DNA of 32,000 bases from Candidatus Scalindua sp. (lineage in GTDB: Bacteria; Planctomycetota; Brocadiia; Brocadiales; Scalinduaceae): positions 3,420,001 to 3,452,000 of the forward strand of contig JALDRA010000001.1 of NCBI GenBank assembly GCA_031316235.1, in the 5' to 3' direction. Positions within the stretch are counted from its first letter, which is position 1, and each line of letters begins with the position of its first letter. The notes beneath the pieces were generated by a model. The model saw only the letters and a program-made list of their open reading frames with translations. It made no database searches and was not told the origin of the DNA. The translations under genes and the position numbers were made by a program. This document shows, piece after piece, positions 1,305 to 16,729 of the stretch.

Positions 1305-1328
1305 ACCATTTATTTGGTGGGCGTTAAA

Positions 1329-2897: not shown

Positions 2898-2917
2898 GGT
2901 TTGAGGAGGGTTTGAGA

Positions 2918-3055
2918 GTGGAGAATATCTGGTTGATTATAAGCAAGCCTGATAATGTACCTATCGTGGGTTTGATTTTGCTTTTAGTTCTTTTTACGTG
3001 GATGTCTTTTAGCCAGGCGTCAAAAAACGATCGTCAGGCGAACGATGACAGTTAA
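2918..3055 (+). CDS. Candidate 45-aa single-TM micro-protein between the cyt b6 and flavoprotein genes
   Basis: Below the ORF-track size cutoff. GTG 2918 lies 8 nt after GAGGAGG (2903-2909). Translation is VENIWLIISKPDNVPIVGLILLLVLFTWMSFSQASKNDRQANDDS, with one hydrophobic helix and a polar tail. It fills an otherwise unexplained 204-nt gap. Confidence 0.4.
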   Translation: MENIWLIISKPDNVPIVGLILLLVLFTWMSFSQASKNDRQANDDS

Positions 3056-3101
3056 CTGTGAGTCTTTAATAAAGCATATGCTGTAAAATGGGGATTAATT
3101 C

Positions 3102-4796
3102 TTGAAATATAGGGTTGTACAAGCAGACGAAAGCTGGTTTAGTGAAAATATAAACTGTCAACATGCCTGCCCGGCGCATACTCCCGCTTCTAATTATATT
3201 GAAAGGTTGCAGGAGGGAGATTTTGAGGGTGCGTTGAAGTTGAATTATATGGCGAACCTATTTCCTCACATATTAGGCCGTGTATGTACACATCCTTGTG
3301 AGGCGGCTTGTCGAAGGGGAGCCATAGACAAACCAATTGCTATATGTACCTTGAAGAGGGTTGCCGCTGATTTTGCAGATCCGGATGTTCACCCGGAAAA
3401 GCCAAAAAAAATAAAAAACACAGGAAAAAAGGTTGCAGTAGTCGGTGCCGGACCATCCGGACTTGCTGCCGCTAATGATCTGGCCTTACTGGGGTATTCT
3501 GTAACGGTATACGAGGCGTTGCCGATGGCGGGTGGTATGCTGAGTGTAGGTATACCTCCTTATAGACTGCCATGGAATAGAATAGAAAGTGCGGTGAAGT
3601 GGGTTGAGGAATTGGGGATAAAGATAAAGCTCAATAGCCCGGTAAAAGATGAGGCTGAGCTTGATGCCTTGATCAGGAACTACGATGCTGTTTATCTGGC
3701 TGCCGGGGCTCACAAGTCACCTTCGCTTGAAATAGCCGGAGAAGATCTTGATGGCGTGGTGCACGGTATCAGGTTTATGAAAGATATCAACCTGGGTATT
3801 CTGAAAAAGGTACCTTCAAAAGTGGCTGTTGTTGGTGGTGGCTTTACGGCAATTGATTGTGCCCGTTCGTCCCTGAGACTGGGGGCGAAGGAGGTTTCAA
3901 TCATTTACAGGAGAACCTTGAAAGAGATGCCGGCTGGGGAGCTCGAAGTCTCTATGGCAGAGGAAGAGGCGATAAAGATTCTCTTTCTGACTACACCTGT
4001 CCGGGTGCTTGGGGATGCGGATGGGAAGGTGAAAGCCATAGAGTGTCTCATGAACAAGCTTGGGGAGCCTGATAACAGCGGCAGGAGGAGACCGGAACCA
4101 ATTCAGGGTAGTGAGTTTAAAATACCTGTAGATATGGTGGTTGCCGCTATCGGGCAATCGGCTGATACGGGTTTTGTATCCGAGGGTTTGGGAGTGAAGA
4201 TGACGAGATGGGGTACTATTAAAGTGGATCCCAGGACATTGATGTCTGACAGGGCAGGTCTTTTTGTTGGTGGTGACTACCTGACTGGTCCGAGGAATGT
4301 TATTGAGGTTATTGCTGACGGAAGGCAGGTGGCAAAAGCGATCGATGAATACCTTGGAGTGGCTCAGGAGAGAGAGGTTAACTATTTTTTCTCCGACGGT
4401 GAGCCTGTCAGGAACGTAGACAACTATGATGATCTGCCTCGTCAAAAACAGCAGGCACTGTCAATGGATACAAGATGGGATGTTGATAAAGAGGTGGAGC
4501 TGGGATTTACCAAACATGATGCTCAAAAAGAGGCAGATCGATGTTTGCTGTGTCATTATAATATTTTTATAGATGATCAAAAATGTATTTTGTGTGGTGG
4601 GTGCATCGATATCTGTCCGCACAACTGCATCATGATGATCTCGCGTGATAAAATTGAATCAGAGGGTGAAGTGGCTGGTAATTGGGATGCTGTTATGGCC
4701 ATTGACGAGGAGAAATGCATAAGGTGTGGACTCTGCGTAAGGAGATGCCCGGTGGATGCAATTAAGATGAAAAGATTCTCATATGTTGAGAGGTGA
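3102..4796 (+). CDS. NAD(P)H-dependent FAD oxidoreductase, glutamate synthase small-subunit (GltD)-like, with C-terminal 2x[4Fe-4S] ferredoxin domain
   Basis: The N-terminal Cys clusters CQHACP and RVCTHPCEAAC are Fer4_20-like. Two dinucleotide-binding folds are present (VAVVGAGPSGLAAA and VAVVGGGFTAIDCA). The C-terminus carries CILCGGCIDICP and CIRCGLCVRRCP. No TM helix is visible. The start is TTG at 3102. Confidence 0.85.
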   Translation: MKYRVVQADESWFSENINCQHACPAHTPASNYIERLQEGDFEGALKLNYMANLFPHILGRVCTHPCEAACRRGAIDKPIAICTLKRVAADFADPDVHPEKPKKIKNTGKKVAVVGAGPSGLAAANDLALLGYSVTVYEALPMAGGMLSVGIPPYRLPWNRIESAVKWVEELGIKIKLNSPVKDEAELDALIRNYDAVYLAAGAHKSPSLEIAGEDLDGVVHGIRFMKDINLGILKKVPSKVAVVGGGFTAIDCARSSLRLGAKEVSIIYRRTLKEMPAGELEVSMAEEEAIKILFLTTPVRVLGDADGKVKAIECLMNKLGEPDNSGRRRPEPIQGSEFKIPVDMVVAAIGQSADTGFVSEGLGVKMTRWGTIKVDPRTLMSDRAGLFVGGDYLTGPRNVIEVIADGRQVAKAIDEYLGVAQEREVNYFFSDGEPVRNVDNYDDLPRQKQQALSMDTRWDVDKEVELGFTKHDAQKEADRCLLCHYNIFIDDQKCILCGGCIDICPHNCIMMISRDKIESEGEVAGNWDAVMAIDEEKCIRCGLCVRRCPVDAIKMKRFSYVER

Positions 4797-4856
4797 TTCA
4801 CAGGTGCACGCGTAGTTGGAAAATGAATAGAGCTGATTGTATGAAGGGGACAAGAA

Positions 4857-5684
4857 ATGGCGGAAGATAAAGAGACAACAAAGGGAAGATACCGGGCGCT
4901 TGCGTTTGTCAAAGGGGAAACCCTGGCCAAGGAGAAGGATAGGGAAGTCGGGAAGGATGAAGTTCATACCTGGCCATATTTGGTGAGGGTAGAATTTCTT
5001 GCAGCCATCATTATGACCATTATATTGATGATCTGGGCTATTACGCTCGATGCGCCACTGGAGGATCCATCAGACCCTACATTGACTCCTAATCCGGCAA
5101 AGGCACCATGGTATTTTCTCGGGTTACAGGAAATGCTTGTGTATTTTGATCCGTGGATAGCTGGGGTTGTGTATCCATCTTTGATAGTTATCGGACTGAT
5201 GGTTATTCCATATGTGGATATTAATCCCAAGGGAAATGGTTATTACACTCTCAAGGAGAGAAAATTCGCAATACTTACTTTTTGTTTCGGTTTCCATGTG
5301 CTTTGGATATTACTGATCATTGTGGGTGTTTTTATGCGGGGGCCCGGTTGGATCTGGTTCTGGCCATGGGAAACCTGGGATGCTCACCGAGTGGTAGCTG
5401 AGACGAATTACGATCTTACTCACTTTATTGGAGTCGATTCAAAATCTTTCCTCGGTTCTGTTATCGGGGGTAGTGTTGTAGTACTCTACTATTTCATTAC
5501 GATGACTATACCGTTTCTATTCTTGAAATTTATTGGGAGCCCGACTCTTGAAAAAATGGGGATAATGCGGTATACAATTGTAGCGTTTTTGTTCTGGACA
5601 ATGATGACGTTGCCGATTAAGATGTTTTTGAAATTGGTTTTTCACATGAAATATATTTGGGTAACCCCGTGGTTTAATATATAG
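4857..5684 (+). CDS. Cytochrome b C-terminal part / subunit IV-like membrane protein (with extra C-terminal helices)
   Basis: PNPAKAPWYFLGLQE is a variant of the PEWY Qo-site motif. Several hydrophobic helices are visible. ATG 4857 is preceded by GAAGGGGA. Confidence 0.8.
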   Translation: MAEDKETTKGRYRALAFVKGETLAKEKDREVGKDEVHTWPYLVRVEFLAAIIMTIILMIWAITLDAPLEDPSDPTLTPNPAKAPWYFLGLQEMLVYFDPWIAGVVYPSLIVIGLMVIPYVDINPKGNGYYTLKERKFAILTFCFGFHVLWILLIIVGVFMRGPGWIWFWPWETWDAHRVVAETNYDLTHFIGVDSKSFLGSVIGGSVVVLYYFITMTIPFLFLKFIGSPTLEKMGIMRYTIVAFLFWTMMTLPIKMFLKLVFHMKYIWVTPWFNI

Positions 5685-5714: not shown

Positions 5715-8561
5715 ATGAATAGATTAGAAGACAAATCATATGTAGGAAGGTACGTACTGTTAAGTTTGATACTTCTGTTTACGATGGTTGGTGCCATTTG
5801 GAATGAATTAATTGTAAAAAGGCCATGGAAATACTTTCAATCACGTTTTCATGAACTGGAGTATAATAATGCCAAGGCTCTGTATGACAAAGCTGTTGAG
5901 GCATTTAATGACCCAGAGATTCACAAAGAGTATCTTACCCTTGCTGCAAATTTGAAGGATGCTAACGAAAATTTTAACAGGCCGATTATTCAGGATGAGT
6001 ATCAGAAGGTGTTGAAAAAGCTGGAGAAACTCGATAAGGATGAGTTGGAACCATTAAAATTCGAGGCTATACTTACCCGTAATAAGCTTCAGGAAGAGGC
6101 GTATGTATATGGCAGGAGTAAAAAAGAAGAAACATTGAAAGCCATCGAGGGCCTGGAACAGAAAAATAAAGACTTAGCTGAAAAAATAGGCAAACTTGAA
6201 GATAAAAGAGCAGTATTACAAAGTAAGGTTGATGCATTTAAGAGCAAGATTATCACGTATGAAAATGAGCTGAAGATCTTTACGGCTGATGTTGATAAAT
6301 ATCGGACTTTGTTAAATAATATTAATGCAAAACGACCGGGGTTACAGCGCTATCAGGTGCATCTGGAGGCGATTAATGAAGCTGACAGGTGTATGTCCTG
6401 TCACCCGGGAATAGATCGAAGTGAGAGTGTTTCAGAAGAGCAGCCATATGCGAGTCATCCGAGGAGAGATATTTATCTCGGGAATCACCCGCCTGAAAAG
6501 TTTGGTTGTGTCCTGTGTCATGAGGGACAGGCTAGAGCGACTACCAGTCCTGAGAAAGCTCATGGAGAAGTTGAATTCTGGTTACGGCCGATGCTCAAGG
6601 GGGATATGATCCAATCCTCATGCATTTCCTGTCACTCAAATGTTGTCGGGCTGGAAGGTGCGGAAAAGATTTCCGAAGGGTGGAAGCTTTTTAATGAGGC
6701 TGGCTGTTTTGGATGTCATCAGGTGGAGGGGTTCGGCGGGGACAAATTTATGATGATTGGTCCAAATCTGACTGAATTGGGTAGTAAAGTGAATGCTGTT
6801 TGGCTATATCATTGGTTGATGGCACCTAAAGATTACAGGCCCTCTGCCAGGATGCCGGATTTTATGTTGGAAGAGTCTGAGGCAAAAGCTATATCCTCTT
6901 ATCTCTGGCAGAACTCAGAAGGTTTTGATGCGGGTGCTGCTGAGGAGTTCGATGATGAGACTATTGATGATGGAGCATACATTTTTGAAAGTATCGGTTG
7001 CCTGGCATGTCATAGCGAAATAGAAGAAGATGGTCAGGTGCATGGGCCTAATCTGGCAAGGATCGGAGAAAAGGTCAACTTTGAATATCTGGTCAGCTGG
7101 CTCTTGAATCCGAAATTACACCAGCCTGACACTACGATGCCGAATTTCCGTCTTGATGATGAGAGCGCGCGGTTACTCGCAGCATTTCTGACAACTCTTA
7201 CAAGCGATGGTTTCGAGACTTCTGATGAAGAAACAGAGTGGATAGAAGATGAAGAGCTGGCAGCACAGGGGAAAAACCTGATCGGCAGGTATGGTTGTTT
7301 TGGCTGTCATGAAATAAGAGGGATGGAAGGAAGAGGAAAAATTGGAGTCGAATTGTCGGATATAGGTTCTAAGCACGTACATCTCTTTGATTTCGGATTG
7401 AAGGAACATGAGATGATTCATGAATTGGGGATTAAGCACCCGACGGAAAACGTCGCTGCTGCCAGGAGGGCATGGATTGAGGCGAAGTTAACCGACCCGC
7501 GACAATTTGATGAAGGTCGATATAAGAAGCCGTCTGACAGGCTGATAATGCCGAACTTTGGATTGACAGAAGAGGAAGTTAAGCTGATTACAGCGGTTCT
7601 TCTGGGTATGAGAGAGGGAGAAATGCCAGAGGAGTACCGTTTTCAAACTACTGATGATCAGAAAGCGATTCTTGAGGGGAAGAGGGTTGTCAGAAAATAT
7701 AACTGTACTGGATGCCATCAATTCAGCATAGATACACTGTATTTGAATAATGGAACTGTATTGAAGGGTATGGTCAAACTGGAAGAGGAAGATAATCTCT
7801 TTTTTCAACTATGGGAAGATAATGCGGCTTTTGGCAGAGAGGCTGGTGAGACTGCCCAGATTCCGACATCACAAATTAAAAACCGGGTTTATGCTGAAGG
7901 GGGAGATATTGGCTCTTTCATAATTGATTATCACGTCGAGGTTGAAGGGCGTGTGCCTGAGGAGGCAAATGTGTTCACGCCTCCCGTCCTCTATAAAGAG
8001 GGAGAGAAAGTACAGAGTAACTGGGTGTTCGATTTTCTTGAAGAACCGTTTCCTTTACGTCCTTGGCTTGAAGTCCGTATGCCGACGTTTAAATTACCTT
8101 CAGAGGAGGCAACATCGTTATCACGCTACTTTGCGATTCTGGAAGGTGAGGAGTATCCCTATGAATTTATTAAAGAGACGAAAAAAAGTTACATAGCCCA
8201 AAAGGAAGAAGAGTGCCCGGGTTATCTGGATGATGCGCGTAGGTTGTTTGACTCAAAGGATGTAAATTGCGCTTCCTGTCATGTAAGAGGTTCAATAACA
8301 CCTGATGGTGAGCCATCGAGCTGGGCTCCAGATTTGTCTCTGGCAAAATATAGGCTGAAGCCTGACTGGATTAAGAGGTGGTTACTGGATCCGCAGCTTA
8401 TCCAGCCAGGAACAAAAATGCCGAAGCTGTTCAGGGAAGGGGTATTTCAGGATATTTTTCCTGGTGAACCTGGTGAACAGGCTGAGGCACTAAAGGACCT
8501 TCTGATGAACTTTCCGGATGAAATGGTTGGCGAGGGTGAGGATGCAGACTCGGAAGAGTAA
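5715..8561 (+). CDS. Membrane-anchored octaheme c-type cytochrome with long N-terminal helical stalk
   Basis: Eight CxxCH motifs: CMSCH, CVLCH, CISCH, CFGCH, CLACH, CFGCH, CTGCH, CASCH. There is one N-terminal TM helix (YVLLSLILLFTMVGAIW). Residues ~43-207 are charged and heptad-like with no Cys. Confidence 0.85.
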   Translation: MNRLEDKSYVGRYVLLSLILLFTMVGAIWNELIVKRPWKYFQSRFHELEYNNAKALYDKAVEAFNDPEIHKEYLTLAANLKDANENFNRPIIQDEYQKVLKKLEKLDKDELEPLKFEAILTRNKLQEEAYVYGRSKKEETLKAIEGLEQKNKDLAEKIGKLEDKRAVLQSKVDAFKSKIITYENELKIFTADVDKYRTLLNNINAKRPGLQRYQVHLEAINEADRCMSCHPGIDRSESVSEEQPYASHPRRDIYLGNHPPEKFGCVLCHEGQARATTSPEKAHGEVEFWLRPMLKGDMIQSSCISCHSNVVGLEGAEKISEGWKLFNEAGCFGCHQVEGFGGDKFMMIGPNLTELGSKVNAVWLYHWLMAPKDYRPSARMPDFMLEESEAKAISSYLWQNSEGFDAGAAEEFDDETIDDGAYIFESIGCLACHSEIEEDGQVHGPNLARIGEKVNFEYLVSWLLNPKLHQPDTTMPNFRLDDESARLLAAFLTTLTSDGFETSDEETEWIEDEELAAQGKNLIGRYGCFGCHEIRGMEGRGKIGVELSDIGSKHVHLFDFGLKEHEMIHELGIKHPTENVAAARRAWIEAKLTDPRQFDEGRYKKPSDRLIMPNFGLTEEEVKLITAVLLGMREGEMPEEYRFQTTDDQKAILEGKRVVRKYNCTGCHQFSIDTLYLNNGTVLKGMVKLEEEDNLFFQLWEDNAAFGREAGETAQIPTSQIKNRVYAEGGDIGSFIIDYHVEVEGRVPEEANVFTPPVLYKEGEKVQSNWVFDFLEEPFPLRPWLEVRMPTFKLPSEEATSLSRYFAILEGEEYPYEFIKETKKSYIAQKEEECPGYLDDARRLFDSKDVNCASCHVRGSITPDGEPSSWAPDLSLAKYRLKPDWIKRWLLDPQLIQPGTKMPKLFREGVFQDIFPGEPGEQAEALKDLLMNFPDEMVGEGEDADSEE

Positions 8562-8645: not shown

Positions 8646-9416
8646 ATGAAAAAAATTATTGAAAGTTGTGTGAAAAGTGTCGTAATAGCCTTTATTATGG
8701 TTTCGTTTACGTTACTTGTCAGTAAGAGTAGTGTTAATGCTGAGTATGTGGGTGGGGATGTATCCAATGGCGGATCAATTTCTGGTACGATTAAGCTGAA
8801 GGGCGATACACCGGAGGTAAAGATGTTAAAGGTTGATAAGGATCAGGCAACCTGCGGTCACGATGATATAGAATCAGAAGCACTGATTTTATCAGCGGAC
8901 AATGGTATTAAGGATGCTGTTATTTCGATTACAGACATCACCAAGGGGAAAAAGTTTCCTGCTGATAAGCTAGAGATAGATCAGAAAGAATGTATATTCA
9001 TACCTCATGTGACATTAGCGCCAAAGGGGCAGACGGTTGAGCTGTTAAATAGTGACGATGTTATGCATAATCTGCATTCGTACTCGATGAAAAATACTGC
9101 TTTTAATGAAGGGGTTACAGGTGGTGGTAAACTTCCCAAAAATTTTGAATATGCTGAAACTATCAAAATTACCTGTGACGTGCATACCTGGATGACTTCA
9201 TGGCTGATTGTTCAGGATCACCCATATTATGTATTGAGTGACGAAAATGGTAAATATACGATTGACAATGTTCCTGCAGGTGACTACACTCTTCAGGTCT
9301 GGCAGGAATCTCTTGGAAAGACTACACAAAAGGTATCAGTAAAAGCAGGGGAAAACACCACAGTAGATTTTGAATTAGAGAAGAAATCTCAGAAAAAATC
9401 CAGAAAACGAAGGTAA
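8646..9416 (+). CDS. Secreted cupredoxin-like protein with C-terminal CarboxypepD_reg-like domain (paralog of 591..1304)
   Basis: AAAGGAG SD lies 7 nt upstream of the ATG and the N-terminus is signal-like. VMHNL plus CDVHTWM (C-x2-H-x2-M) give the ligand set. The C-terminus reads GKYTIDNVPAGDYTLQVWQESL...TTVDFEL. Confidence 0.75.
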   Translation: MKKIIESCVKSVVIAFIMVSFTLLVSKSSVNAEYVGGDVSNGGSISGTIKLKGDTPEVKMLKVDKDQATCGHDDIESEALILSADNGIKDAVISITDITKGKKFPADKLEIDQKECIFIPHVTLAPKGQTVELLNSDDVMHNLHSYSMKNTAFNEGVTGGGKLPKNFEYAETIKITCDVHTWMTSWLIVQDHPYYVLSDENGKYTIDNVPAGDYTLQVWQESLGKTTQKVSVKAGENTTVDFELEKKSQKKSRKRR

Positions 9417-9548: not shown

Positions 9549-11492
9549 ATGAAACATTTTATCAAAGGGAAAAGCTGTAAGGTACTCTTTTCGTTCCTGT
9601 TTATTCTGATACTTCAGCTTGTTACGTCCCAGTATGTCGAGGCGCAGGAAAGTGGTGAGCTTGTACAATACCGGAATTTCTTCGGTATAGATGCACGTTT
9701 GATGGTGTGGATAGTTTCTGAATTGCATCTGATGTTTGCAGCGTTTGTACTTGGAGTTCCAATGTTTGCAGTAACGGTGGAGATTATCGGTGTAAAGTCC
9801 GGGGACATCAGATTTGACAACCTGGCACGAGAATTTACGAAACTTTTGTCAGCGGCCTTTGCTACAACTGCTGCATTGGGTGGCTTACTCGCATTTTGCC
9901 TGTATGGGATGTATCCCGGATTCATGCGCTATATGACCGATGTGTTCCATCCAATAATGTTCATATATGCTTTGCTTTTCTTTGCAGAGGCTTTCTGTTT
10001 GTACGGATATTATTATTCGTGGGACATACTCAAAGAGAAGGGTAAGTGGTTTCATATTTTTCTTGGTATCATGTTAAATGTCTTCGGTACGACATTGATG
10101 TTTCTCGCAAATTCCTGGGCAACGTTTATGATGTCGCCTGATGGCATAGATCTGGAAACCGGAGCTGTTACCAGTTTACATGCTGCCTTTGATAATTTTC
10201 TCTGGATGCCGGTTAATATACACCGACTGATTGCAAATGTTGCTTTTGGTGGTTTTGTTGTTGGTGCTTATGCGGCGGTGAAATTCATGGGATCTAAAAG
10301 TGATGAAGATAAAGCTCACTATGATTGGATGGGTTATATCGGTAATTTTATTGGTCTGGCAGCCTTGATACCTCTTCCTTTTGCCGGGTATTACCTTGGG
10401 CGTGAGATTTACAGTGCGAGCCCGGTTATGGGAAATATAATGATGGGTGGAGCATTTTCCTGGACCTTCATCATACAGGCTATTCTCATCGGTATGCTCT
10501 TCATCGGTGGAAACTATTATCTGTGGAATGGAATGGACAGAATTGAAGGTGCAGATCGTTATCGGAAATTTATAATATTTATTAATGTTATAATTTTCTT
10601 CTGCTTTGCGGTATGGTTAACTCCTCATAATCTTCCGCTGAGTGGTGAAGAGAGAGCCTTGATTGGAGAGCAGTATCACCCCTTCTCCAAATTCTTCGGT
10701 GTTATGGCTGCAAAGAATGCGGTAGTGAATCTTCTGATACTTTCAACATTTTTCAGCTTTCTTATCTATCGCAGGGCAAATAAAGGAGAGATTGTCACAT
10801 TTTCAAAGCATGGTAATTCCGCTCGCATAGCTCTGATTATTACCGCAGGGCTGACTATTCTATATCTGGCATGGTATGCAATGGGTTTACGTGCTGTAGA
10901 GTTGGATGCAAATATCAAACAGTACATTACACCTCTTCTTGCGTGTATAGCAATACAAATTACCGCTATAGTTATTGCGGTTCTCATGACTTTTGCTAAC
11001 AGAGGAAAATCTGCTCAAATTTTTCTTTTCATAGTGACTACTCTCATAGCGGTGGTTTATTTAGCCTATTATGGGTTTGTGGTCATGGAGAAGGCGAACA
11101 TGGTTTTACGGTTTTTGTCTGTGACCCAGGTGTCTGTTGTTATCAGTTGTTTAATTGTCAACGCAGTTTTAGATGTATTTATCTTCAAGAATGCTAAGGA
11201 AGTGGGAAAAATTCGCTGGGGTAAAATTCCGCTCCGATCACAATATGCATTACTTTTGCTCTGTGTGGCGATAGTAACGCTGATGGGTCTCATGGGATTC
11301 ATACGTTCTGGACTGCGGATGAACTGGCATATTTATGGCTATATGCAGGATACTTCGCCTGGAGCATTTACCCCCAGTATTTCATACATGGGTTTAACAA
11401 CTACTTTGATTGTAGTTCTTTTCCTGGCTCTTGTTTCCTTTGTATTCTGGTTAGCAGGTCTTGGAGATAAGAAGAAAGGGGGCCATGCTTAA
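9549..11492 (+). CDS. Orphan cytochrome bd subunit I (CydA)-like polytopic membrane protein, no adjacent CydB
   Basis: The ORF track gives 9540..11492 (TTG); the first ATG is at 9549. CydA-like landmarks are ELHLMFAAFVLGVPMF (N-terminal His), LANSWATFMMSPDG and NIHRLIANVAFGGFVVGAY (second His). About 14-15 hydrophobic helices are visible by eye. No long hydrophilic Q-loop is seen. Confidence 0.7.
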   Translation: MKHFIKGKSCKVLFSFLFILILQLVTSQYVEAQESGELVQYRNFFGIDARLMVWIVSELHLMFAAFVLGVPMFAVTVEIIGVKSGDIRFDNLAREFTKLLSAAFATTAALGGLLAFCLYGMYPGFMRYMTDVFHPIMFIYALLFFAEAFCLYGYYYSWDILKEKGKWFHIFLGIMLNVFGTTLMFLANSWATFMMSPDGIDLETGAVTSLHAAFDNFLWMPVNIHRLIANVAFGGFVVGAYAAVKFMGSKSDEDKAHYDWMGYIGNFIGLAALIPLPFAGYYLGREIYSASPVMGNIMMGGAFSWTFIIQAILIGMLFIGGNYYLWNGMDRIEGADRYRKFIIFINVIIFFCFAVWLTPHNLPLSGEERALIGEQYHPFSKFFGVMAAKNAVVNLLILSTFFSFLIYRRANKGEIVTFSKHGNSARIALIITAGLTILYLAWYAMGLRAVELDANIKQYITPLLACIAIQITAIVIAVLMTFANRGKSAQIFLFIVTTLIAVVYLAYYGFVVMEKANMVLRFLSVTQVSVVISCLIVNAVLDVFIFKNAKEVGKIRWGKIPLRSQYALLLLCVAIVTLMGLMGFIRSGLRMNWHIYGYMQDTSPGAFTPSISYMGLTTTLIVVLFLALVSFVFWLAGLGDKKKGGHA

Positions 11493-12618: not shown

Positions 12619-13389
12619 ATGCAGAAAAAGAAACATTCATATTCGATGATATGGGCCATAATCTCGATACTTATTGTCTTTTGTATAATTAAATTTGTAT
12701 CACCATATGCGTTCATGATGCTGTTGGGTAAAGATCATACAATGCCAACTCCCAGTACCTTAATGTTATGGTACATGATTCTTGGTGTTCTGGGAGCGCT
12801 TGTCTATGTTTCTACCAGTGATTTAAAATGGGCAAACTTTTTAAGTTTCATGCTTCCGGGTGAGGATGACCGGACCAAGAAGATGCTCCAAAAGTTGATC
12901 GTGGTTGCATTTCCTTTGTTGCTGGGCTGGTTTGTCTATTCAGGAACTTCTCCTGGAACAGCATCTCCTGTTGAGCTGAGGATACAGCATCCTACTTTGC
13001 TGCAAAAGTATGAAAAAATGGAGAATCCATTCGCACACGTATCCGAAGAATTAAAAGAGCGCTATATTGAAGAAGGAAAGCACCTTTATCAACAGAACTG
13101 CCGGCCCTGCCATGGTTCAAAGGCCGATGGAAACGGTCCTTTCGCCAATTCGTTTCGATTGCGACCTATTAATTTTACTGATCCCGGTACAATAGCAACA
13201 GTTGTTGAGAGTTTCGCCTTCTGGCGTATTATGGAGGGTGGCCCCGGGTTGCCAGATGAGTCTACACCATGGGACTCTGCAATGCCTGCATGGGAAGGAA
13301 CACTGACAGATGATCAGGTTTGGAAGATTATTATGGGAGAATATGCAACTGCCGGGGTGAAACCAAGGCAGAGGGAGGAAATGGAATAG
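12619..13389 (+). CDS. Monoheme c-type cytochrome with three N-terminal TM helices
   Basis: A single CRPCH followed by GSKADGNG (class I / cbb3-type cytochrome c domain). Three hydrophobic segments precede it. GAAGGA SD lies upstream. Confidence 0.8.
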   Translation: MQKKKHSYSMIWAIISILIVFCIIKFVSPYAFMMLLGKDHTMPTPSTLMLWYMILGVLGALVYVSTSDLKWANFLSFMLPGEDDRTKKMLQKLIVVAFPLLLGWFVYSGTSPGTASPVELRIQHPTLLQKYEKMENPFAHVSEELKERYIEEGKHLYQQNCRPCHGSKADGNGPFANSFRLRPINFTDPGTIATVVESFAFWRIMEGGPGLPDESTPWDSAMPAWEGTLTDDQVWKIIMGEYATAGVKPRQREEME

Positions 13390-13470: not shown

Positions 13471-15219
13471 ATGAGCAAAAAAAAAGAGCAGTCAAATTAT
13501 TATTTTGAGTTTACGAGATATCTTTTTTTGATACTTGTTGCTTTCGTGCTTTTTTCACGATTTGGGTATACACAGACCTCTCAGCTCTTTAGGACGTATA
13601 AGAGTGAGATCACCGGTAAAGTACCTGAAACCCAGGATGCGGTTGCGGCAGGAAAGAAAATTTACGAAAAGAAGTGCTACTACTGCCATGGGATCAAGGG
13701 TGACGGGAAAGGTTCTGATGCCCTTAGGCTTAATCCAAGGCCGAGAAATTTCATCAGGAACGAGTATAAAATACGTTCAACACCTCTTCATGAACTTCCG
13801 ACTGATGAAGATCTTTTCAGGATTATAACAAGCGGAATTGAGGGAACAGATATGCCCTTTTGGAGTTCACTGTCCAGTGAAGAGAGGTGGCAGGTCGTTT
13901 ATTACATAAAAACTTTCAATACTGCTTTTGAAAAAAAATCTCAGAACGCATCAACTTCTGGTGGCAACGAGATTCCGGTGAGCCCGGAGTCAGTTAAAAT
14001 TGGTAGTGAGCTCTTTAAAGATGCAAAATGCGTAAACTGTCACGGTGAGGGTGGTAAGGCTGATGGTAAAATAACTACGACATTAGAGGGCATCTGGGAT
14101 CGTCCCTATCGTGCAAGGAATCTGACGAAAAGCTGGCTTTTTAAAGGTGGTAATGCTGCTTCAGATATTCATAGAACCCTGACGAATGGATTAAATGAAA
14201 CACCGATGGGTTCCTATGCAGAATATCTGTCAGATGAGGAGCGATGGCATCTGGCTCATTATGTCAAATCAATTTCTAAAACAATGGATACCGATGTGGT
14301 GCTTACCTCGAAAATAGTAGAAAGTTATCTTCCTGCTGGACCCGATGATCCGGTCTGGGATACAATCACCTCGGTTGAATTGCCATTGGCCGGGCAGATC
14401 ATCGCTAAACCGAGACAGTGGATGCCGTCCGTTGATTCAATCAAGGTCAAGTCTTTTTTTACTGATGAGTATATTGTCTTTCTGCTTGAGTGGGACGATA
14501 CGACAAACGAGCAGAATGAGACGTTTAGTGATTCGGTAGCCTTACAATTTCCCACATCAATCCCTGATGGATCTGAGAAACCCTATTTTGCGATGGGTAG
14601 TTCCGGGAAGGGTGTTACGATATGGCAATGGAGGGCGTATGATGAATCTCTTCAAATTGCCGAAAATGATTTAGAAGAAACGGATAAGGCGGACACAGCA
14701 ACCGATGGTGGCAGCAGCCTGGATGATAAAGAGGTTGAAGAAGATTCCGGTGATGTGGGTGTAAACACCCCTGAAAATGAGCAGGCAGAGATTGTTGAAG
14801 AAGAAGAGATGAAGCCTCTTTTTACCGAGTTTGCAACTTTAAGGGAAATGAATGCAAAGGGCTTTACGAATGTGAGCGTTCAGCCTTCCAGCAGCCAGCT
14901 TACCCGGGGACTTGGGGTATGGAGAAATGGTAAATGGAAGGTAATGGTAGCCAGTCCGATAGCCACAAATGACAAGAAGCTCGATATTCAATTTGAAGAG
15001 GGAAAGCTCATACCGTATGCCTTGGCGGTATGGGACGGATCTAAGCAGGAGGTTGGTGGGCTTAAATCTATTTCATCTTGGTATTATTTGAATTTGGAGA
15101 AAGTTACACCAAAAAGTGTCTATTTTTATGTTGTTATTGCAATAATAATTGGAACCAGTATTCAATTTTGGGTTATTGGAAGAGTAAGACGATTTCCCCC
15201 GAAGGTTAATGAAGAATAA
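13471..15219 (+). CDS. Diheme cytochrome c fused to an EB_dh (ethylbenzene dehydrogenase gamma / NxrC-NarC-like) heme b domain, C-terminal TM anchor
   Basis: CYYCHGIKGDGKG and CVNCHGEGGKADG form a CcoP-like diheme unit. The EB_dh-like strings are VALQFPTS..PYFAMGSSGKGVTIWQWRA and ALAVWDGSKQEVGGLKSISSWYYL. An acidic insert spans 14641-14817. The C-terminal TM is VYFYVVIAIIIGTSIQFWVIG. Confidence 0.7.
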   Translation: MSKKKEQSNYYFEFTRYLFLILVAFVLFSRFGYTQTSQLFRTYKSEITGKVPETQDAVAAGKKIYEKKCYYCHGIKGDGKGSDALRLNPRPRNFIRNEYKIRSTPLHELPTDEDLFRIITSGIEGTDMPFWSSLSSEERWQVVYYIKTFNTAFEKKSQNASTSGGNEIPVSPESVKIGSELFKDAKCVNCHGEGGKADGKITTTLEGIWDRPYRARNLTKSWLFKGGNAASDIHRTLTNGLNETPMGSYAEYLSDEERWHLAHYVKSISKTMDTDVVLTSKIVESYLPAGPDDPVWDTITSVELPLAGQIIAKPRQWMPSVDSIKVKSFFTDEYIVFLLEWDDTTNEQNETFSDSVALQFPTSIPDGSEKPYFAMGSSGKGVTIWQWRAYDESLQIAENDLEETDKADTATDGGSSLDDKEVEEDSGDVGVNTPENEQAEIVEEEEMKPLFTEFATLREMNAKGFTNVSVQPSSSQLTRGLGVWRNGKWKVMVASPIATNDKKLDIQFEEGKLIPYALAVWDGSKQEVGGLKSISSWYYLNLEKVTPKSVYFYVVIAIIIGTSIQFWVIGRVRRFPPKVNEE

Positions 15220-16729
15220 TACAATGAAAAAAAATAATTTGATAATCAGAAATCTTGAACTACTTGCTGCAACTGGGCTTTTTATTTTTTCAATTATTGT
15301 ATTGACCCCTTTGTCAATTCGTGCAGAAGCCAACAAGGATCAGAAGTTTTATCTAGAGATAGAGGAGTTATACAACGGTAAAAAAGAGTATAAGCAGCTG
15401 CCGATACAGCTGGAGGATCCATATGATCGCTCGAAAAATGGTCCTACGCTCAAGAATGTTATCCACAAGGCAAGCAAAGAGTGGTTGAAGAAGTGGATAG
15501 ATAATCCAACCTCCATGATTCCAAATGCTCGTATGCCGAGACTTATGTTAAGTGAAAGTGAGATTGAAGCAGTTCTGGCGTATTTAACAAGCATTGCCGA
15601 TAAGGATATTCCCCGACAGAAGTGGGATGAATACCTTATGAAAAGTGAAGATGATATGACCGACGATGAGTATGATGAAATGAATGATTTGAGCGATAAG
15701 GGTAAAGGTGTATGGGGAAGGGCACGTTGTAATATATGCCATCCAGTTAAAGGTAAAGGAGGTTCTGTTGATGTCGGGCCAGATCTCGGCAGGTTAGCGG
15801 AGAAATTGAACCGTGACTGGTTATATATGTGGATTAAAGAACCAAAAAGCCATTTCCGTGATACTCAAATGCCACGATATCGATTCAGTGATGATGAGAT
15901 ACGTCAATTGGTAGAATTTCTCATGCAGTCATATGATTTTAAACCTGAAGAGAGCGATGATGAGGAAAATGAATCAGATTCTCAGGAAAATGATTCTGGA
16001 TCAGGAGAACCTGAAGATGATACTGAAAAGGAAGGTTCAATAAGGGTCTCATCGCTTATCCCTGAAGGCTCTTTAATTGAAAAGGGTAAGAGGATTATTG
16101 AACTGAACAGATGCACTATCTGCCATGAAATTGAAGGGATAGCAGATCTTCTCCCTGTTAAAGAACCCAGTGTAGAACCTGAAAATACCTTTGCACATTT
16201 ATTGAATGATGTTCGTTGTATGACGTGTCATAAAATACAGGGTAATGGTGGTTCTTATGCTCCTGAACTGACACATGAAGGGAGCAAACTTAAACAGAAA
16301 TGGATTAAGGGTTTCTTACAGAAGCCTGATATTATCCGTCCTCTATTACAGCAGATGCCTAAATTTAACATTACTGAGGATGAGGCTGAGCTTGCAGTTG
16401 AGTTTATTGAGGAATACTTTGTAAACGACGATATTCCTGTTGCAAAGTTTGCCGACAGAGAGCCAACTGACGAGGAAATCAGTAAAGGTAAGGAGCTTTA
16501 TGATGTAAAGGGGTGTAGAAGTTGCCATGCGATACAAGAGGGAGGAATTGTTGGTCCAACATTAAAAAGAGTTGGTGACAGGTTAGAAAATGGTTTTATA
16601 TATCATCATCTGAAAAATCCTCACCTGGAAGTTCCTGATGGAGTTGAACCAAATTTTCAATTTTCGGATGAAGAGGCGGTTGCTATCACGAATTATCTGA
16701 TGTCATGTAAGGATAAGGAAAAAAATTAA
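15209..16729 (+). CDS. Membrane-anchored tetraheme c-type cytochrome with an N-terminal heme-less cytochrome-c-like domain
   Basis: Motifs CNICH, CTICH, CMTCH and CRSCH. It overlaps the previous stop by 11 nt; the alternative ATG is 15224. The N-terminal hydrophobic anchor is LELLAATGLFIFSIIVLTPL. An acidic linker reads DDEENESDSQENDSGSGEPEDD. Confidence 0.8.
   Translation: MKNNTMKKNNLIIRNLELLAATGLFIFSIIVLTPLSIRAEANKDQKFYLEIEELYNGKKEYKQLPIQLEDPYDRSKNGPTLKNVIHKASKEWLKKWIDNPTSMIPNARMPRLMLSESEIEAVLAYLTSIADKDIPRQKWDEYLMKSEDDMTDDEYDEMNDLSDKGKGVWGRARCNICHPVKGKGGSVDVGPDLGRLAEKLNRDWLYMWIKEPKSHFRDTQMPRYRFSDDEIRQLVEFLMQSYDFKPEESDDEENESDSQENDSGSGEPEDDTEKEGSIRVSSLIPEGSLIEKGKRIIELNRCTICHEIEGIADLLPVKEPSVEPENTFAHLLNDVRCMTCHKIQGNGGSYAPELTHEGSKLKQKWIKGFLQKPDIIRPLLQQMPKFNITEDEAELAVEFIEEYFVNDDIPVAKFADREPTDEEISKGKELYDVKGCRSCHAIQEGGIVGPTLKRVGDRLENGFIYHHLKNPHLEVPDGVEPNFQFSDEEAVAITNYLMSCKDKEKN

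What the first reader, a model, noticed from the sequence alone, without database searches (positions are those of the whole stretch)
9549..11492. Orphan CydA-like protein with no CydB, no Q-loop, extra helices and a signal-like N-terminus, embedded among c-type cytochromes
The protein keeps CydA landmarks: the N-terminal His in ELHLMF, NSWATFMMSPDG, and the second His in NIHRLIAN. The segment where canonical CydA has its long hydrophilic quinol-binding Q-loop is only a short loop here. There are about five extra C-terminal helices, and the N-terminus looks like a cleavable signal (LFILILQLVTSQYVEAQE). No CydB or CydX gene is adjacent, and its neighbours are a cupredoxin and five cytochromes c. 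CydA-only, cytochrome-c-associated members of the bd superfamily have been catalogued phylogenomically, and one sits in the Kuenenia nxr cluster (from memory). Their activity is unknown. Possible roles include a quinol:cytochrome c or reverse-electron-flow module rather than an O2 reductase.
Basis: partly seen in the sequence, partly recalled or inferred. Interest (0 to 1): 0.7.

Follow-up and report, generated by a model that had tools for sequence, protein, structure and literature searches.

The report
Anammox bd-like (OR-N2) cytochrome subunit
This gene encodes the already described "cytochrome bd-like" membrane haem protein of anammox bacteria, which always sits in a fixed set of cytochrome genes; what the protein does has never been tested, so the gene is a known unknown, not a discovery.

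Summary
The ORF at 9549-11492 (+) is real. It encodes a 647-aa CydA homologue from a Candidatus Scalindua genome, 93-96% identical to database Scalindua proteins and about 70% to the Kuenenia protein.

It matches the published OR-N2 signature of the bd superfamily: H60, Y140, E147, H169, H225, M386/N390, S587, W593. It has no Q-loop and no haem c motif, and the window holds no CydB.

Genes 8646-18704 repeat the Kuenenia nxr-cluster genes kustd1713 to kustd1706 in the same order. nxrABC is absent; a Rieske/cytochrome b operon lies upstream instead.

Across 80 loci from many phyla, the core of bd-like, dihaem c, monohaem c and EbdC-like haem b/c genes is nearly invariant (54/61 complete, EbdC-like 61/61). 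Neighbours vary: NXR, arsenite oxidase-like enzymes, haem-copper oxidases, and often a NirJ/AhbD-like radical SAM gene.

Function is untested. I favour a cytochrome c-fed terminal reductase for O2, perhaps NO (about 0.42), over a quinone-coupled module (about 0.3). Novelty: already known. Interest is moderate to low.

The parts
9549..11492 (+). bd-like CydA homologue (OR-N2 type), 647 aa; orthologue of Kuenenia kustd1712
   Evidence: ORF. PF01654 at 85 bits. CydA chains are the only significant PDB sequence hits and the top 10 Foldseek hits. AF2 model has pLDDT 87, pTM 0.87. OR-N2 signature residues are present.
9549..9647 (+). Signal-like or anchor N-terminal segment (residues 1-33: basic start, hydrophobic helix 8-31, VEA/QE)
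   Evidence: Hydropathy. AF2 helix 8-31 followed by a low-pLDDT linker. The feature is conserved while the following linker varies in length among anammox orthologues. Cleavage not testable here.
9693..10367 (+). Canonical CydA core, TM1-6. Holds H60 (9726-9728; His19 equivalent), Y140 (9966-9968; in place of Glu99), E147 (9987-9989; Glu107 equivalent), H169 (10053-10055; His126 equivalent) and H225 (10221-10223; His186 equivalent)
   Evidence: Alignments to 5doq_A, 9r2g_A, 7ose_A and 6rko_A. Codons checked. Invariant or nearly so in 88 relatives.
10368..10616 (+). Replacement of the Q-loop: a short P-side segment (residues 274-303, with invariant M299) plus two inserted TM helices (304-356)
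   Evidence: AF2 secondary structure. Lucker et al. 2013 describe membrane helices in place of the Q-loop (PMC3578206). M299 is 88/88.
10704..10775 (+). TM9 with the GVMAAKN motif (M386 at 10704-10706, N390): proposed equivalent of canonical TM7 and the Met393 haem b558 ligand
   Evidence: Spacing matches M430/N434 of the OR-N2 reference in Murali Suppl. Table 6. M386 is 88/88. The equivalence is inferred, not shown by a significant alignment.
10815..11183 (+). Four inserted TM helices (TM10-13, residues 423-545). The first pair (about 418-484) is present in only 55 of 88 relatives
   Evidence: AF2; occupancy count.
11235..11462 (+). TM14, a beta hairpin and TM15 carrying RSGLRMNWH (S587 at 11307-11309 in place of Glu445; W593-H594 at 11325-11330): proposed equivalent of canonical TM8-9 and the GRQPW loop
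   Evidence: Sub-threshold second-domain alignments in the same register to three canonical CydA sequences. Murali Table 6 gives S563/W569. S587 is 84/88, W593 85/88, H594 87/88. A profile of this segment alone finds nothing in the PDB.
8646..9416 (+). Cupredoxin-like protein with a CarboxypepD_reg C-terminal domain (kustd1713 equivalent); signal-like N-terminus
   Evidence: Pfam. Type-1 copper ligand pattern H141/C177/H180/M183. Homologue near the bd-like gene in 32 of 39 gene copies that have 8 kb of sequence on both sides. kustd1713 is called a blue copper protein in PMC11897245.
11626..12573 (+). Membrane-anchored dihaem cytochrome c (kustd1711 equivalent); core module subunit
   Evidence: 2 CxxCH and an N-terminal TM. 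Pfam and NCBIfam. Downstream of the bd-like gene in 59/61 copies. Naturally fused to the C-terminus of the bd-like protein in several lineages.
12619..13389 (+). Monohaem cytochrome c with about 3 N-terminal hydrophobic segments (kustd1710 equivalent); core module subunit
   Evidence: present in 56/61 copies.
13471..15219 (+). Alternative NxrC: two haem c motifs, an EB_dh (EbdC-like haem b) domain and a C-terminal TM anchor (kustd1709 equivalent); core module subunit
   Evidence: PF09459 at 97.7 bits, TIGR03477. 2 CxxCH and a C-terminal TM. Present downstream in 61/61 copies.
15209..16729 (+). Tetrahaem cytochrome c (kustd1708 equivalent)
   Evidence: 4 CxxCH; Pfam; conserved in anammox loci.
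16751..17380 (+). Monohaem cytochrome c with a C-terminal TM (kustd1707 equivalent)
17457..18704 (+). Tandem Usp domains fused to a PCP_red domain (kustd1706 equivalent); last gene of the cluster
   Evidence: Pfam. Homologue near the module in 22/39 loci.
5715..8561 (+). Octahaem cytochrome c, 948 aa, with an N-terminal TM and a long N-terminal helical stretch; directly upstream of the cupredoxin gene in Scalinduaceae loci
   Evidence: 8 CxxCH. Pfam. Homologue upstream in L002, L003, L004, L048, L069 and L083.
564..5684 (+). Adjacent Rieske/cytochrome b operon: cupredoxin-like (564-1304), Rieske (1314-1880), cytochrome b (2025-2897), GltD-like FAD/NAD(P)/FeS subunit (3102-4796) and a subunit IV-like protein (4857-5684). 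This adjacency is lineage-specific
   Evidence: Pfam and NCBIfam. Same arrangement in the closest genome, L083. Absent upstream in L002, L004 and L084.

Best explanation
**Identity (near certain).** The gene encodes the membrane-integral haem b subunit of the 'cytochrome bd-like' complex: OR-N2 subfamily of the bd superfamily, orthologue of Kuenenia kustd1712. It works without CydB. Its partners are encoded next to it: a membrane-anchored dihaem cytochrome c, a monohaem cytochrome c and an EbdC/NxrC-like haem b/c protein. In anammox bacteria a tetrahaem c, a second monohaem c and a cupredoxin are added.

**Proposed mechanism (inferred).**
1. Electrons arrive on the positive side of the membrane (the anammoxosome lumen) from c-type haems and the NxrC-like subunit. 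These are fed by nitrite oxidoreductase and, in this genome, possibly by the adjacent Rieske/cytochrome b complex through the octahaem protein.
2. They enter a His225/Met386-ligated low-spin haem, the b558 equivalent. It sits where the quinol-binding Q-loop has been replaced by membrane helices.
3. They pass to a His60-ligated haem in the first four-helix bundle.
4. There a small oxidant is reduced: most likely O2, possibly NO. Protons come from the cytoplasmic side through the retained E147/H169/Tyr network.

This makes the complex a cytochrome c-dependent terminal reductase. In Scalindua it would couple nitrite-derived electrons to oxygen scavenging.

**Confidence by layer.** Family assignment and complex composition: about 0.95. 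Electron entry from c-type haems and not from quinol: about 0.7. Terminal-reductase chemistry: about 0.42. The confidence value given for this explanation is that of the last, least certain layer.
For: **Identity**
- PF01654 match. CydA chains are the only significant PDB sequence hits.
- CydA chains are the top 10 Foldseek hits for a confident model.
- All checkable OR-N2 signature residues of Murali Suppl. Table 6 are present with matching spacing.
- These residues are invariant or nearly so in 88 relatives of 41-93% identity: Y140 88/88, E147 87/88, H169 88/88, H225 88/88, M386 88/88, S587 84/88, H594 87/88.

**Complex**
- The gene order equals kustd1713 to kustd1706.
- The core neighbours are conserved across many phyla: EbdC-like 61/61, dihaem c 59/61, monohaem c 56/61.
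- Natural fusions of the bd-like protein to a C-terminal dihaem c exist in several clusters.
- The kustd1705-1712 products are found in Kuenenia membranes (PMC11897245).

**Donor**
- There is no Q-loop. Published work reports that the quinol-binding residues are absent (PMC3578206).
- All partners are exported or anchored c-type cytochromes.

**Reductase chemistry**
- An invariant buried Glu/His/Tyr set in TM3-4 and the His19-type ligand are kept, even in strict anaerobes.
- The family is common in aerobes and microaerophiles.
- In most Nitrospirales an OR-N-type complex is the proposed main terminal oxidase, often alongside other oxygen reductases (PMC6606698 and PMC12342949).
- Here the module follows a complex III-like operon.
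- Scalindua reduces O2 with nitrite as the donor. That activity is sensitive to chlorate, an NXR inhibitor, and its electron path is called unresolved (PMC13253579).
Against: - No biochemical data exist for any OR-N enzyme.
- Glu445, the ligand of the third haem, is Ser. Glu99 is Tyr. Ser140 is Leu/Ile. So the canonical dihaem O2 site and part of the proton path are missing.
- Anammox bacteria are anaerobes. The Kuenenia gene is expressed under anoxia and falls together with nxr when nitrite is replaced by NO. That fits a role in nitrite-linked electron flow as such.
- The Scalindua O2 study attributes the activity to cbb3 oxidase and finds it azide-sensitive.
- In 13-15 loci the module lies beside a haem-copper oxidase. 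That is the context typical of a complex III analogue, not of a second oxidase.
- The equivalences M386 = Met393 and TM14-15 = TM8-9 rest on motif spacing, a published curated alignment and sub-threshold alignments. A profile of the C-terminal segment alone finds nothing in the PDB.
- I had no model coordinates to check haem-site geometry.
Confidence: 0.42

Rival explanations
1. The complex is a quinone-coupled electron module, analogous to alternative complex III. It links the cytochrome c/NXR level with the menaquinone pool. Running forward, it passes electrons from quinol to cytochrome c, and on to nitrate or an oxidase. Running in reverse, it drives nitrite-derived electrons uphill for CO2 fixation. 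This is the classical proposal for the anammox and Nitrospira/Nitrospina clusters.
For: - Proposed by Lucker et al. 2013 (PMC3578206) and Mundinger et al. 2019 (PMC6606698).
- The module is co-located with nxr in Brocadiaceae and one Nitrospinota locus, and co-regulated with nxr in Kuenenia.
- It is adjacent to arsenite oxidase-like genes in 18 loci and to haem-copper oxidases in 13-15 loci. This is where a complex III analogue, or a reverse-flow device for lithotrophs, would be expected.
- The six extra helices could form a new quinone site.
Against: - There is no recognisable quinol site: the Q-loop and its residues are absent.
- All bd-type haems lie near the positive side and the retained proton path comes from the cytoplasm. 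That geometry generates a proton-motive force and does not consume one, so uphill quinone reduction is hard to couple. This is my inference from the established bd architecture.
- A quinol:cytochrome c role would not need the invariant His19-type haem site or the buried Glu.
- In this window a Rieske/cytochrome b complex is already encoded next door. A second complex III analogue there would be redundant.
Confidence: 0.3
2. The protein is mainly a membrane anchor or scaffold. It tethers NXR, through the NxrC-like subunit, and its cytochromes to the anammoxosome membrane. Its haems serve only as a wire, or it has no catalytic site of its own.
For: - The alternative NxrC with a TM anchor is always present (61/61).
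- The literature suggests an anchor-point role.
- The products are membrane-bound in Kuenenia.
Against: - Only 6 of 39 well-flanked loci have an NxrB-like gene within about 10 kb. In Scalindua the module is separated from nxrABC. So an NXR anchor cannot be the general role.
- A scaffold does not explain invariant buried polar and ligand residues over 41-93% identity.
Confidence: 0.1
3. It is the CydA of an ordinary quinol-oxidising cytochrome bd oxidase, and its CydB is encoded elsewhere in the genome.
For: - Database annotations call it 'cytochrome ubiquinol oxidase subunit I'.
- The first five to six helices align with canonical CydA.
Against: - There is no Q-loop; Glu99 and Glu445 are replaced; there are six extra helices.
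- No CydB lies in the window or in any of the 80+ related loci whose conserved neighbours I identified.
- The conserved partners are cytochromes c and an EbdC homologue.
- The rest of the genome could not be searched.
Confidence: 0.02

Closest known systems
OR-N2 subfamily of the cytochrome bd superfamily (Murali, Gennis and Hemp 2021): the 'cytochrome bd-like oxidase' of Nitrospira, Nitrospina and Kuenenia (kustd1712; Lucker et al. 2010/2013)
   Same: - The signature is the same: His19, His186, Met/Asn at the Met393 position, Glu445 to Ser, Glu99 to Tyr, Glu107 kept, His126 kept, Trp441 kept, and the Tyr pair.
- There is no Q-loop and no haem c motif.
- The operon holds several cytochromes c and an EbdC homologue.
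- The gene order is identical to Kuenenia kustd1713 to kustd1706.
   Different: - In this Scalindua lineage the module is not next to nxrABC. It follows a Rieske/cytochrome b operon and an octahaem cytochrome.
- The model has 15 TM helices plus a signal-like helix, against the 14 quoted for the reference. The extra pair occurs in 55/88 relatives.
Canonical cytochrome bd quinol oxidase subunit CydA (E. coli bd-I/bd-II, Geobacillus, mycobacterial enzymes; PDB 6rko, 7ose, 5doq, 7nkz)
   Same: The fold and sequence of the first four-helix bundle and TM5-6 are shared. So are the His19-type and His186-type ligands and the Glu107 and His126 equivalents. These are the only significant structural and sequence matches in the PDB.
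   Different: There is no CydB, CydX or Q-loop. Glu445 is replaced by Ser and Glu99 by Tyr. Six helices are inserted. The partners are c-type cytochromes, so the donor is almost certainly not quinol at the canonical site.
OR-N1 and OR-N5 bd-like proteins, encoded with petA/petB/petD (Murali et al. 2021; Nitrospira bd-like_1/2 next to complex III)
   Same: They are members of the same OR-N family. In this window the bd-like module is likewise adjacent to Rieske, cytochrome b and subunit IV-like genes.
   Different: The residue at the Glu107 position is Glu here, where OR-N1 has Gly. The immediate operon partners are the OR-N2 type. The Rieske/cytochrome b adjacency is confined to this lineage and a few others (2 of 39 well-flanked loci).
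OR-C family (CydA with a fused haem c domain)
   Same: It is a Q-loop-less CydA homologue presumed to take electrons from haem c.
   Different: OR-C has about 8 TM helices and CxxCH motifs within CydA. This protein has none. Fusions to a dihaem c do occur in some OR-N2 relatives, but at the C-terminus of the long form.
Alternative complex III (ActABCDEF)
   Same: This is a functional analogy only. Both are multi-haem c plus membrane subunit complexes, often encoded beside a haem-copper oxidase.
   Different: There is no sequence or fold relationship. ACIII uses NrfD-like quinol-binding subunits and an FeS/molybdopterin-like module, not a CydA fold.

Membership tests
Cytochrome bd superfamily (CydA fold, PF01654) | Match to the Cyt_bd_oxida_I profile above the curated cut-off | tested here: met
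   85 bits against a cut-off of 26.2, covering profile positions 2-243 of 418 only.
Cytochrome bd superfamily (CydA fold, PF01654) | CydA three-dimensional fold | tested here: met
   AF2 model with pLDDT 87 and pTM 0.87. The top 10 Foldseek PDB hits are all CydA chains, E 3.6e-9 to 4.9e-5, target-normalised TM 0.50-0.59.
Cytochrome bd superfamily (CydA fold, PF01654) | Axial His of the active-site haem (E. coli His19), said to be kept by all paralogues | tested here: met
   H60 aligns with His21 of 5doq_A. It is His in 85/88 relatives.
Cytochrome bd superfamily (CydA fold, PF01654) | Haem b558 ligands His186 and Met393 | tested here: inconclusive
   H225 aligns with the His186 position and is 88/88. 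M386 (88/88) matches M430 of the OR-N2 reference by spacing, but no significant alignment of this region to a canonical CydA was obtained.
Canonical quinol-oxidising cytochrome bd (qOR, CydAB) | Periplasmic Q-loop with the quinol-binding residues between TM6 and TM7 | tested here: not met
   About 30 residues of short helices followed by two TM helices occupy this position. The literature reports all quinol-binding residues lacking in bd-like proteins.
Canonical quinol-oxidising cytochrome bd (qOR, CydAB) | CydB subunit encoded with CydA | tested here: not met
   No PF02322 match in the window ORFs scanned or in the C-terminal half. The conserved neighbours in related loci are cytochromes c and an EbdC homologue.
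Canonical quinol-oxidising cytochrome bd (qOR, CydAB) | Glu445 (third haem ligand) and Glu99 (proton channel/active site) | tested here: not met
   S587 (84/88 Ser) and Y140 (88/88 Tyr) occupy these positions, by register with Murali Table 6 and the sub-threshold alignments.
OR-N2 subfamily | Residue signature of Suppl. Table 6: H, M/N, S, H, Y, E, L, H, W, Y, Y at E. coli positions 186, 393, 445, 19, 99, 107, 140, 126, 441, 114, 116 | tested here: met
   H225, M386/N390, S587, H60, Y140, E147, L183, H169, W593, Y154 and Y156. Inter-residue spacings equal those of the reference wherever no insertion intervenes.
OR-N2 subfamily | Operon with several cytochromes c and an EbdC (EB_dh) homologue; often no second cydA | tested here: met
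   Window genes 11626-17380. Described for OR-N2 in the supplement of Murali et al.. Core conserved in 54/61 copies, EbdC-like in 61/61.
OR-N2 subfamily | About 14 transmembrane helices | tested here: met
   The model has 15 TM helices plus the N-terminal hydrophobic helix. Relatives lacking residues 418-484 would have 13 plus 1, which is 14. This is a long-form member.
OR-N1 subfamily | Gly at the Glu107 position; operon with petA/petB/petD | tested here: not met
   E147 is present. A pet-like operon is adjacent here, but the immediate partners are the OR-N2 type.
OR-C family | Haem c binding motifs within CydA, about 8 TM helices | tested here: not met
   No CxxCH motif; 15 TM helices.
Anammox nxr-cluster accessory module (kustd1706-1713) | Same genes in the same order | tested here: met
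   Table in PMC6423088. Loci L001 and L005-L010.
Anammox nxr-cluster accessory module (kustd1706-1713) | Physical linkage to nxrABC | tested here: not met
   No NxrB-like ORF in the window or in the Scalindua loci. It is present after the module in Brocadiaceae.
Terminal oxygen reductase (functional class) | Catalytic O2 reduction | not testable with these tools
   No OR-N enzyme has been characterised.

The most novel reading that the evidence does not exclude
The bd-like, dihaem c, monohaem c and EbdC-like core may be an uncharacterised type of respiratory complex. Its active site might use a specially modified tetrapyrrole and extra ligands not found in canonical bd oxidases. The extra ligands would be the invariant H377, H594, M299 and D601.

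The cofactor would be made by the NirJ/AhbD-like radical SAM protein with a PCP_red domain. Its gene abuts or overlaps the bd-like gene in Gemmatimonadota, Nitrospinota and Bdellovibrionota. In Scalindua it lies divergently beside the cluster.

In Scalindua this complex, and not only cbb3 oxidase, would carry the unexplained nitrite/NXR-dependent O2 (or NO) reduction.
Probability: 0.15. Interest if true: 0.75.

Novelty: already known. Interest (0 to 1): 0.35.

Why it matters
- **Standing.** The bd-like (OR-N) proteins are the presumed terminal oxidases of the main nitrite oxidisers, Nitrospira and Nitrospina. They are also a fixed part of the anammox nitrite-oxidoreductase system. Yet none has been purified or assayed.
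- **This window.** It adds no new kind of protein. The comparison it prompted gives three usable handles.
  1. A four-gene core is almost invariant across many phyla. That defines what to purify or co-express.
  2. The core is independent of NXR. It recurs beside arsenite oxidase-like enzymes, haem-copper oxidases and complex III-like operons. That constrains its role to the cytochrome c level of respiration.
  3. A NirJ/AhbD-like radical SAM gene is often operonic with it. I found no paper linking the two. This suggests a special cofactor.
- **For Scalindua.** The module is an obvious, so far ignored, candidate for the nitrite-dependent oxygen scavenging reported in 2026.

Tried and rejected
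- **Locus search with the widest alignment.** The search for related loci with A2 failed because no stretch was conserved enough. I repeated it with the closer set A3.
- **Independent profile-profile test of M386 = Met393 and S587 = Glu445.** I searched with the Geobacillus CydA fragment to collect full-length canonical CydA sequences. It returned only fragments of 342 aa or fewer, so no canonical alignment could be built and hhalign was not run.
- **C-terminal segment alone.** A 94-residue profile of the C-terminal segment (A5) found nothing in the PDB at E<=10. Sequence alone therefore cannot show that the last two helices match canonical TM8-9.
- **Hidden CydB-like half.** I considered that the extra helices might be a fused CydB, because CydB chains appear in Foldseek at E 0.06-0.3. 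Pfam at E<=10 finds no CydB signal in residues 300-647. CydA and CydB share a fold, so those hits need no such explanation. Left unproven.
- **Promoter and terminator scan, 1-19900.** Counts were no higher than in shuffles and there was no site between 8561 and 9549. This says nothing about operon boundaries.
- **S. japonica protein P0051.** It was not on record for a contig look-up.
- **Extra helix pair.** I first thought the pair at 418-484 was specific to anammox bacteria. The count shows it in 55/88 relatives.
- **'NXR anchor' as the general role.** Rejected, because only 6/39 well-flanked loci have an NxrB-like neighbour.


Full report
**1. What is at the coordinates**

An uninterrupted + strand ORF runs from a TTG at 9540, or more plausibly the ATG at 9549, to 11492. 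All residue numbers below count from the ATG (647 aa).

The window is about 40% G+C. Genes 564-18704 all lie on the + strand. The closest database proteins are 93-96% identical and come from Candidatus Scalindua. Kuenenia and Brocadia orthologues are about 70% identical. The source is therefore a marine anammox planctomycete.

**2. Checking the observation**

- **Family match.** Pfam Cyt_bd_oxida_I matches at 85 bits (cut-off 26.2). Only the first 243 of 418 profile positions align.
- **PDB by sequence.** The only significant hits are CydA chains.
- **Ligand alignments.** H60 (ELHLMF) pairs with His21 of Geobacillus CydA, which is His19 of E. coli. H225 (NIHRLIAN) pairs with the His186 position. 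E147 pairs with Glu108/Glu107. The Glu101/Glu99 position is Tyr140.
- **Haem c.** The protein has no CxxCH motif.
- **Structure.** An AlphaFold2 model built on 50 diverse relatives is confident (pLDDT 87.1, pTM 0.87). Its ten best Foldseek matches in the PDB are all CydA chains.
- **Helices in the model.** There is an N-terminal helix (8-31), a poorly ordered linker, then 15 transmembrane helices.
- **N-terminus.** The helix ends in VEA/QE. Among anammox orthologues it is followed by an acidic linker of very variable length. That fits a signal peptide or signal anchor. Cleavage cannot be decided here.
- **No CydB.** There is no CydB family match in the window ORFs I scanned, or in the C-terminal half of the protein.
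- **Neighbours.** Downstream lie five c-type cytochromes with 2, 1, 2, 4 and 1 haem motifs. Upstream lie a cupredoxin-like protein with a type-1 copper ligand pattern and an octahaem cytochrome.

**3. Where the extra helices are**

Following the topology from a positive-side N-terminus:
- TM1-6 (49-273) are the canonical core.
- The Q-loop position holds about 30 residues of short helices and two extra TM helices (304-356).
- TM9 (386-409) begins on the positive side with GVMAAKN.
- Four more helices follow (423-545).
- TM14, a hairpin and TM15 (563-638) carry RSGLRMNWH.
- The positive-inside rule is obeyed at every cytoplasmic loop (and the sequence itself).

The last segment aligns to the E-x-GRQPW region of three different canonical CydA sequences. 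The alignments are below threshold but always in the same register.

Murali et al. place Met393, Glu445 and Trp441 of E. coli at M430/N434, S563 and W569 of their OR-N2 reference. Those correspond by spacing to M386/N390, S587 and W593 here.

So there are six extra helices, and they are internal. This part is inference. A profile of the C-terminal 94 residues alone finds nothing in the PDB. I could not build a canonical CydA alignment for a profile-profile test. No coordinates were available.

**4. Which family**

Supplementary Table 6 of Murali, Gennis and Hemp gives a residue signature for each bd subfamily. The window protein has the OR-N2 pattern at every position I could register:

| E. 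coli position | This protein |
|---|---|
| His19 | H60 |
| Glu99 | Y140 |
| Glu107 | E147 |
| Phe114 / Phe116 | Y154 / Y156 |
| His126 | H169 |
| Ser140 | L183 |
| His186 | H225 |
| Met393 | M386 / N390 |
| Glu445 | S587 |
| Trp441 | W593 |

It differs from OR-N1, which has Gly at the Glu107 position. It differs from OR-C, which has haem c motifs and about 8 helices.

The same supplement says OR-N2 operons typically hold several cytochromes c and an EbdC homologue. That is exactly the context here.

Earlier genome papers describe the same protein as the 'cytochrome bd-like oxidase'. They report 14 predicted helices, membrane helices in place of the Q-loop and no quinol-binding residues. They also report that it is conserved with an alternative NxrC, a mono- and a dihaem cytochrome c and cupredoxins in Kuenenia, Nitrospira and Nitrospina (PMC3578206; PMC6606698).

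The Kuenenia gene is kustd1712. The table in PMC6423088 lists kustd1706 to kustd1713 in the reverse of the window's order, gene for gene. Locus L001 from Kuenenia confirms this.

The products of kustd1705-1712 are found in Kuenenia, 84-99.5% in the membrane fraction (PMC11897245).

The finding is thus a known protein in a known module.

**5. What the comparison with other genomes adds**

They span many phyla: Planctomycetota, Nitrospirota, Nitrospinota, Methylomirabilota, Chloroflexota, Gemmatimonadota, Bacteroidota (Rhodothermales), Acidobacteriota, Myxococcota, several proteobacterial classes and others.

I called ORFs in the 80 best loci, plus four loci fetched by protein look-up, and compared them with the window's proteins.

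Of 61 bd-like gene copies with at least 6 kb downstream:

| Downstream gene, same strand | Copies |
|---|---|
| EbdC-like haem b/c gene | 61 |
| Dihaem c | 59 |
| Monohaem c | 56 |
| All three | 54 |

- Several lineages have the dihaem c fused to the C-terminus of the bd-like protein. This fits the topology, because the C-terminus is cytoplasmic and the cytochrome has its own N-terminal anchor.
- In 88 full-length relatives of 41-93% identity the signature residues are essentially invariant. So are residues with no canonical counterpart: M299, H377, R586, R590, H594 and D601.
- Two length classes exist. The helix pair at 418-484 is present in 55 of 88.

The wider neighbourhood varies. Among 39 loci with 8 kb on both sides (the cupredoxin count is per gene copy):

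| Neighbour | Loci (of 39) |
|---|---|
| Cupredoxin-like gene | 32 |
| Usp-PCP_red gene | 22 |
| NirJ/AhbD-like radical SAM gene | 14 |
| Haem-copper oxidase genes | 10 |
| Arsenite oxidase-like AioAB with two dihaem peroxidases | 9 |
| NxrB-like gene | 6 |
| Rieske/cytochrome b genes | 2 |

The module is therefore not an NXR accessory in general.

In Scalindua the module is separated from nxrABC. In this window, and in the closest genome (L083, 94% identity), it follows a Rieske/cytochrome b operon that includes a GltD-like FAD/FeS subunit. Other Scalinduaceae loci (L002, L004, L084) lack that operon at this place but keep the octahaem gene.

**6. How it most likely works**

*Shown.* The fold and family; the retained and lost ligand positions; the fixed partners; the membrane localisation of the Kuenenia products.

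*Inferred.*
- Electrons enter from haem c on the positive side, not from quinol. The Q-loop is gone, and every partner is an exported or anchored cytochrome.
- The entry point would be a His225/Met386 haem.
- From there electrons would reach the His60 haem in the first four-helix bundle.

What happens next is the open question. I favour reduction of a small oxidant (O2, perhaps NO), with protons from the cytoplasm. My reasons:
- The His19-type site and a buried Glu/His/Tyr network are invariant, even in strict anaerobes.
- The family is common in aerobes.
- In most Nitrospirales an OR-N-type complex is the proposed main terminal oxidase.
- Here the module follows a complex III-like operon.
- The bd architecture naturally generates a proton-motive force and does not consume one.
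- Scalindua was recently shown to reduce O2 with nitrite as donor, in a chlorate-sensitive way. The electron path is called unresolved and the bd-like module is never mentioned (PMC13253579).

Against this reading:
- The third-haem ligand Glu445 and Glu99 are lost.
- No enzyme of the family has been assayed.
- The Kuenenia gene is expressed under anoxia and tracks nxr.
- The Scalindua activity was azide-sensitive and was attributed to cbb3.
- Adjacency to haem-copper oxidases is what one expects of a complex III analogue.

The main rival, a quinone-coupled ACIII-like or reverse-flow module, therefore stays close behind. My estimates: terminal reductase about 0.42, quinone-coupled about 0.3, passive anchor about 0.1, ordinary CydA with a distant CydB about 0.02. 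The remainder is something not yet thought of.

**7. A lead seen on the way**

A radical SAM/SPASM protein with a C-terminal PCP_red domain recurs with the module. Its best NCBIfam matches are NirJ2 and the haem b synthase AhbD (327-352 bits, below their cut-offs).
- Its gene abuts or overlaps the bd-like gene in Gemmatimonadota, Nitrospinota and Bdellovibrionota loci.
- It follows the EbdC-like gene in Rhodothermales.
- It lies divergently beside the cluster in Scalindua. In the closest genome it sits just beyond this window's left edge.
- A Usp-PCP_red protein (17457-18704 here) often accompanies it, and a ParA/NUBPL-type NTPase does so in 7 of the 39 well-flanked loci.
- No paper in the searchable library contains both 'bd-like' and 'radical SAM'.

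This may point to a dedicated tetrapyrrole modification for the complex. It is only a genomic association.

**8. Verdict**

The protein and its module are already known and named, and near-identical sequences are in public databases.

Its function remains an open question, and this window does not by itself make it testable. The survey does sharpen what to purify and which hypotheses to test. Interest is moderate to low (0.35). Novelty: already known.

Noticed in passing
L083:1-369 (-) (gene just left of this window in the closest genome); L004:1100-2878 (-); L072-L082, L014, L045, L056-L063: A NirJ2/AhbD-like radical SAM/SPASM protein with a C-terminal PCP_red domain is encoded near the bd-like module in 24 of 84 loci (14 of 39 well-flanked). 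It often abuts or overlaps the bd-like gene. No paper in the library links 'bd-like' with 'radical SAM'. It may be a cofactor-maturation gene.
   Followed up: partly
window 564-5684: A Rieske/cytochrome b operon with a GltD-like FAD/NAD(P)/FeS subunit and a subunit IV-like protein lies directly upstream. It looks like the anammox R/b-2/R/b-3 type (assignment from memory). The block is present in the closest genome (L083) but absent at this place in other Scalinduaceae loci (L002, L004, L084), so it is a lineage-specific insertion or deletion.
   Followed up: partly
window 5715-8561: A 948-aa octahaem cytochrome c has an N-terminal anchor and a long N-terminal stretch that weakly matches SMC-like coiled-coil families. 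It lies directly upstream of the cupredoxin gene in all Scalinduaceae loci seen, even where the Rieske/cytochrome b genes are missing. It seems to belong with the bd-like module.
   Followed up: partly
window 564-1304 and 8646-9416: Two paralogous cupredoxin-like proteins, each with a type-1 copper ligand pattern (H138/C175/H178/M181 and H141/C177/H180/M183) and a CarboxypepD_reg C-terminal domain. One heads the Rieske/cytochrome b block and the other heads the bd-like module.
   Followed up: partly
window 17457-18704: The last gene of the cluster encodes tandem Usp domains fused to a PCP_red domain (kustd1706 equivalent). The same fusion accompanies the module in 22 of 39 loci across phyla. 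The PCP_red domain also ends the radical SAM protein.
   Followed up: partly
L013, L024, L027-L035, L037, L039, L041, L049, L064, L074, L076: In 18 proteobacterial and Rokubacteria loci the module is preceded by arsenite oxidase-like AioA/AioB genes (TIGR02693 at 407 bits, above its cut-off) and, in most of them, two dihaem cytochrome c peroxidases. The module often occurs there as a tandem duplicate.
   Followed up: partly
L018, L021, L023, L050, L054, L056-L061, L066, L070, L077, L080, L082: Haem-copper oxidase genes (COX1/COX2, sometimes CtaB and SCO1) lie next to the module in Chloroflexota, Methylomirabilota, Rhodothermales and Gemmatimonadota.
   Followed up: partly
P0026, P0128, P0324, P0340, P0359, P0377: Natural fusions of the bd-like protein with a C-terminal dihaem cytochrome c (two CxxCH about 130-137 residues apart, as in the window's 315-aa cytochrome). 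Some could be gene-calling read-throughs.
   Followed up: partly
window 10443-10445, 10677-10679, 11304-11351 (M299, H377, R586, R590, H594, D601): These residues have no counterpart among the canonical CydA ligands, yet they are invariant or nearly so in 88 relatives. By the model topology they lie on positive-side loops or helix ends. They could bind an extra cofactor or dock the cytochromes.
   Followed up: no
window 10791-11003 (residues about 415-485): A pair of transmembrane helices is present in 55 of 88 relatives and absent in 33. This gives a long and a short form of the protein.
   Followed up: yes
window 19315-19671: A small ORF (118 aa) with a signal-like N-terminus and no Pfam match. 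A 118-aa gene sits at the corresponding position downstream of the cluster in the closest genome (L083:20522-20878).
   Followed up: no
window 1-20000: GC skew is strongly positive (0.15-0.28) over the whole + strand gene cluster. It turns negative in three of the 2-kb blocks between 20 and 28 kb, where most genes lie on the - strand.
   Followed up: no
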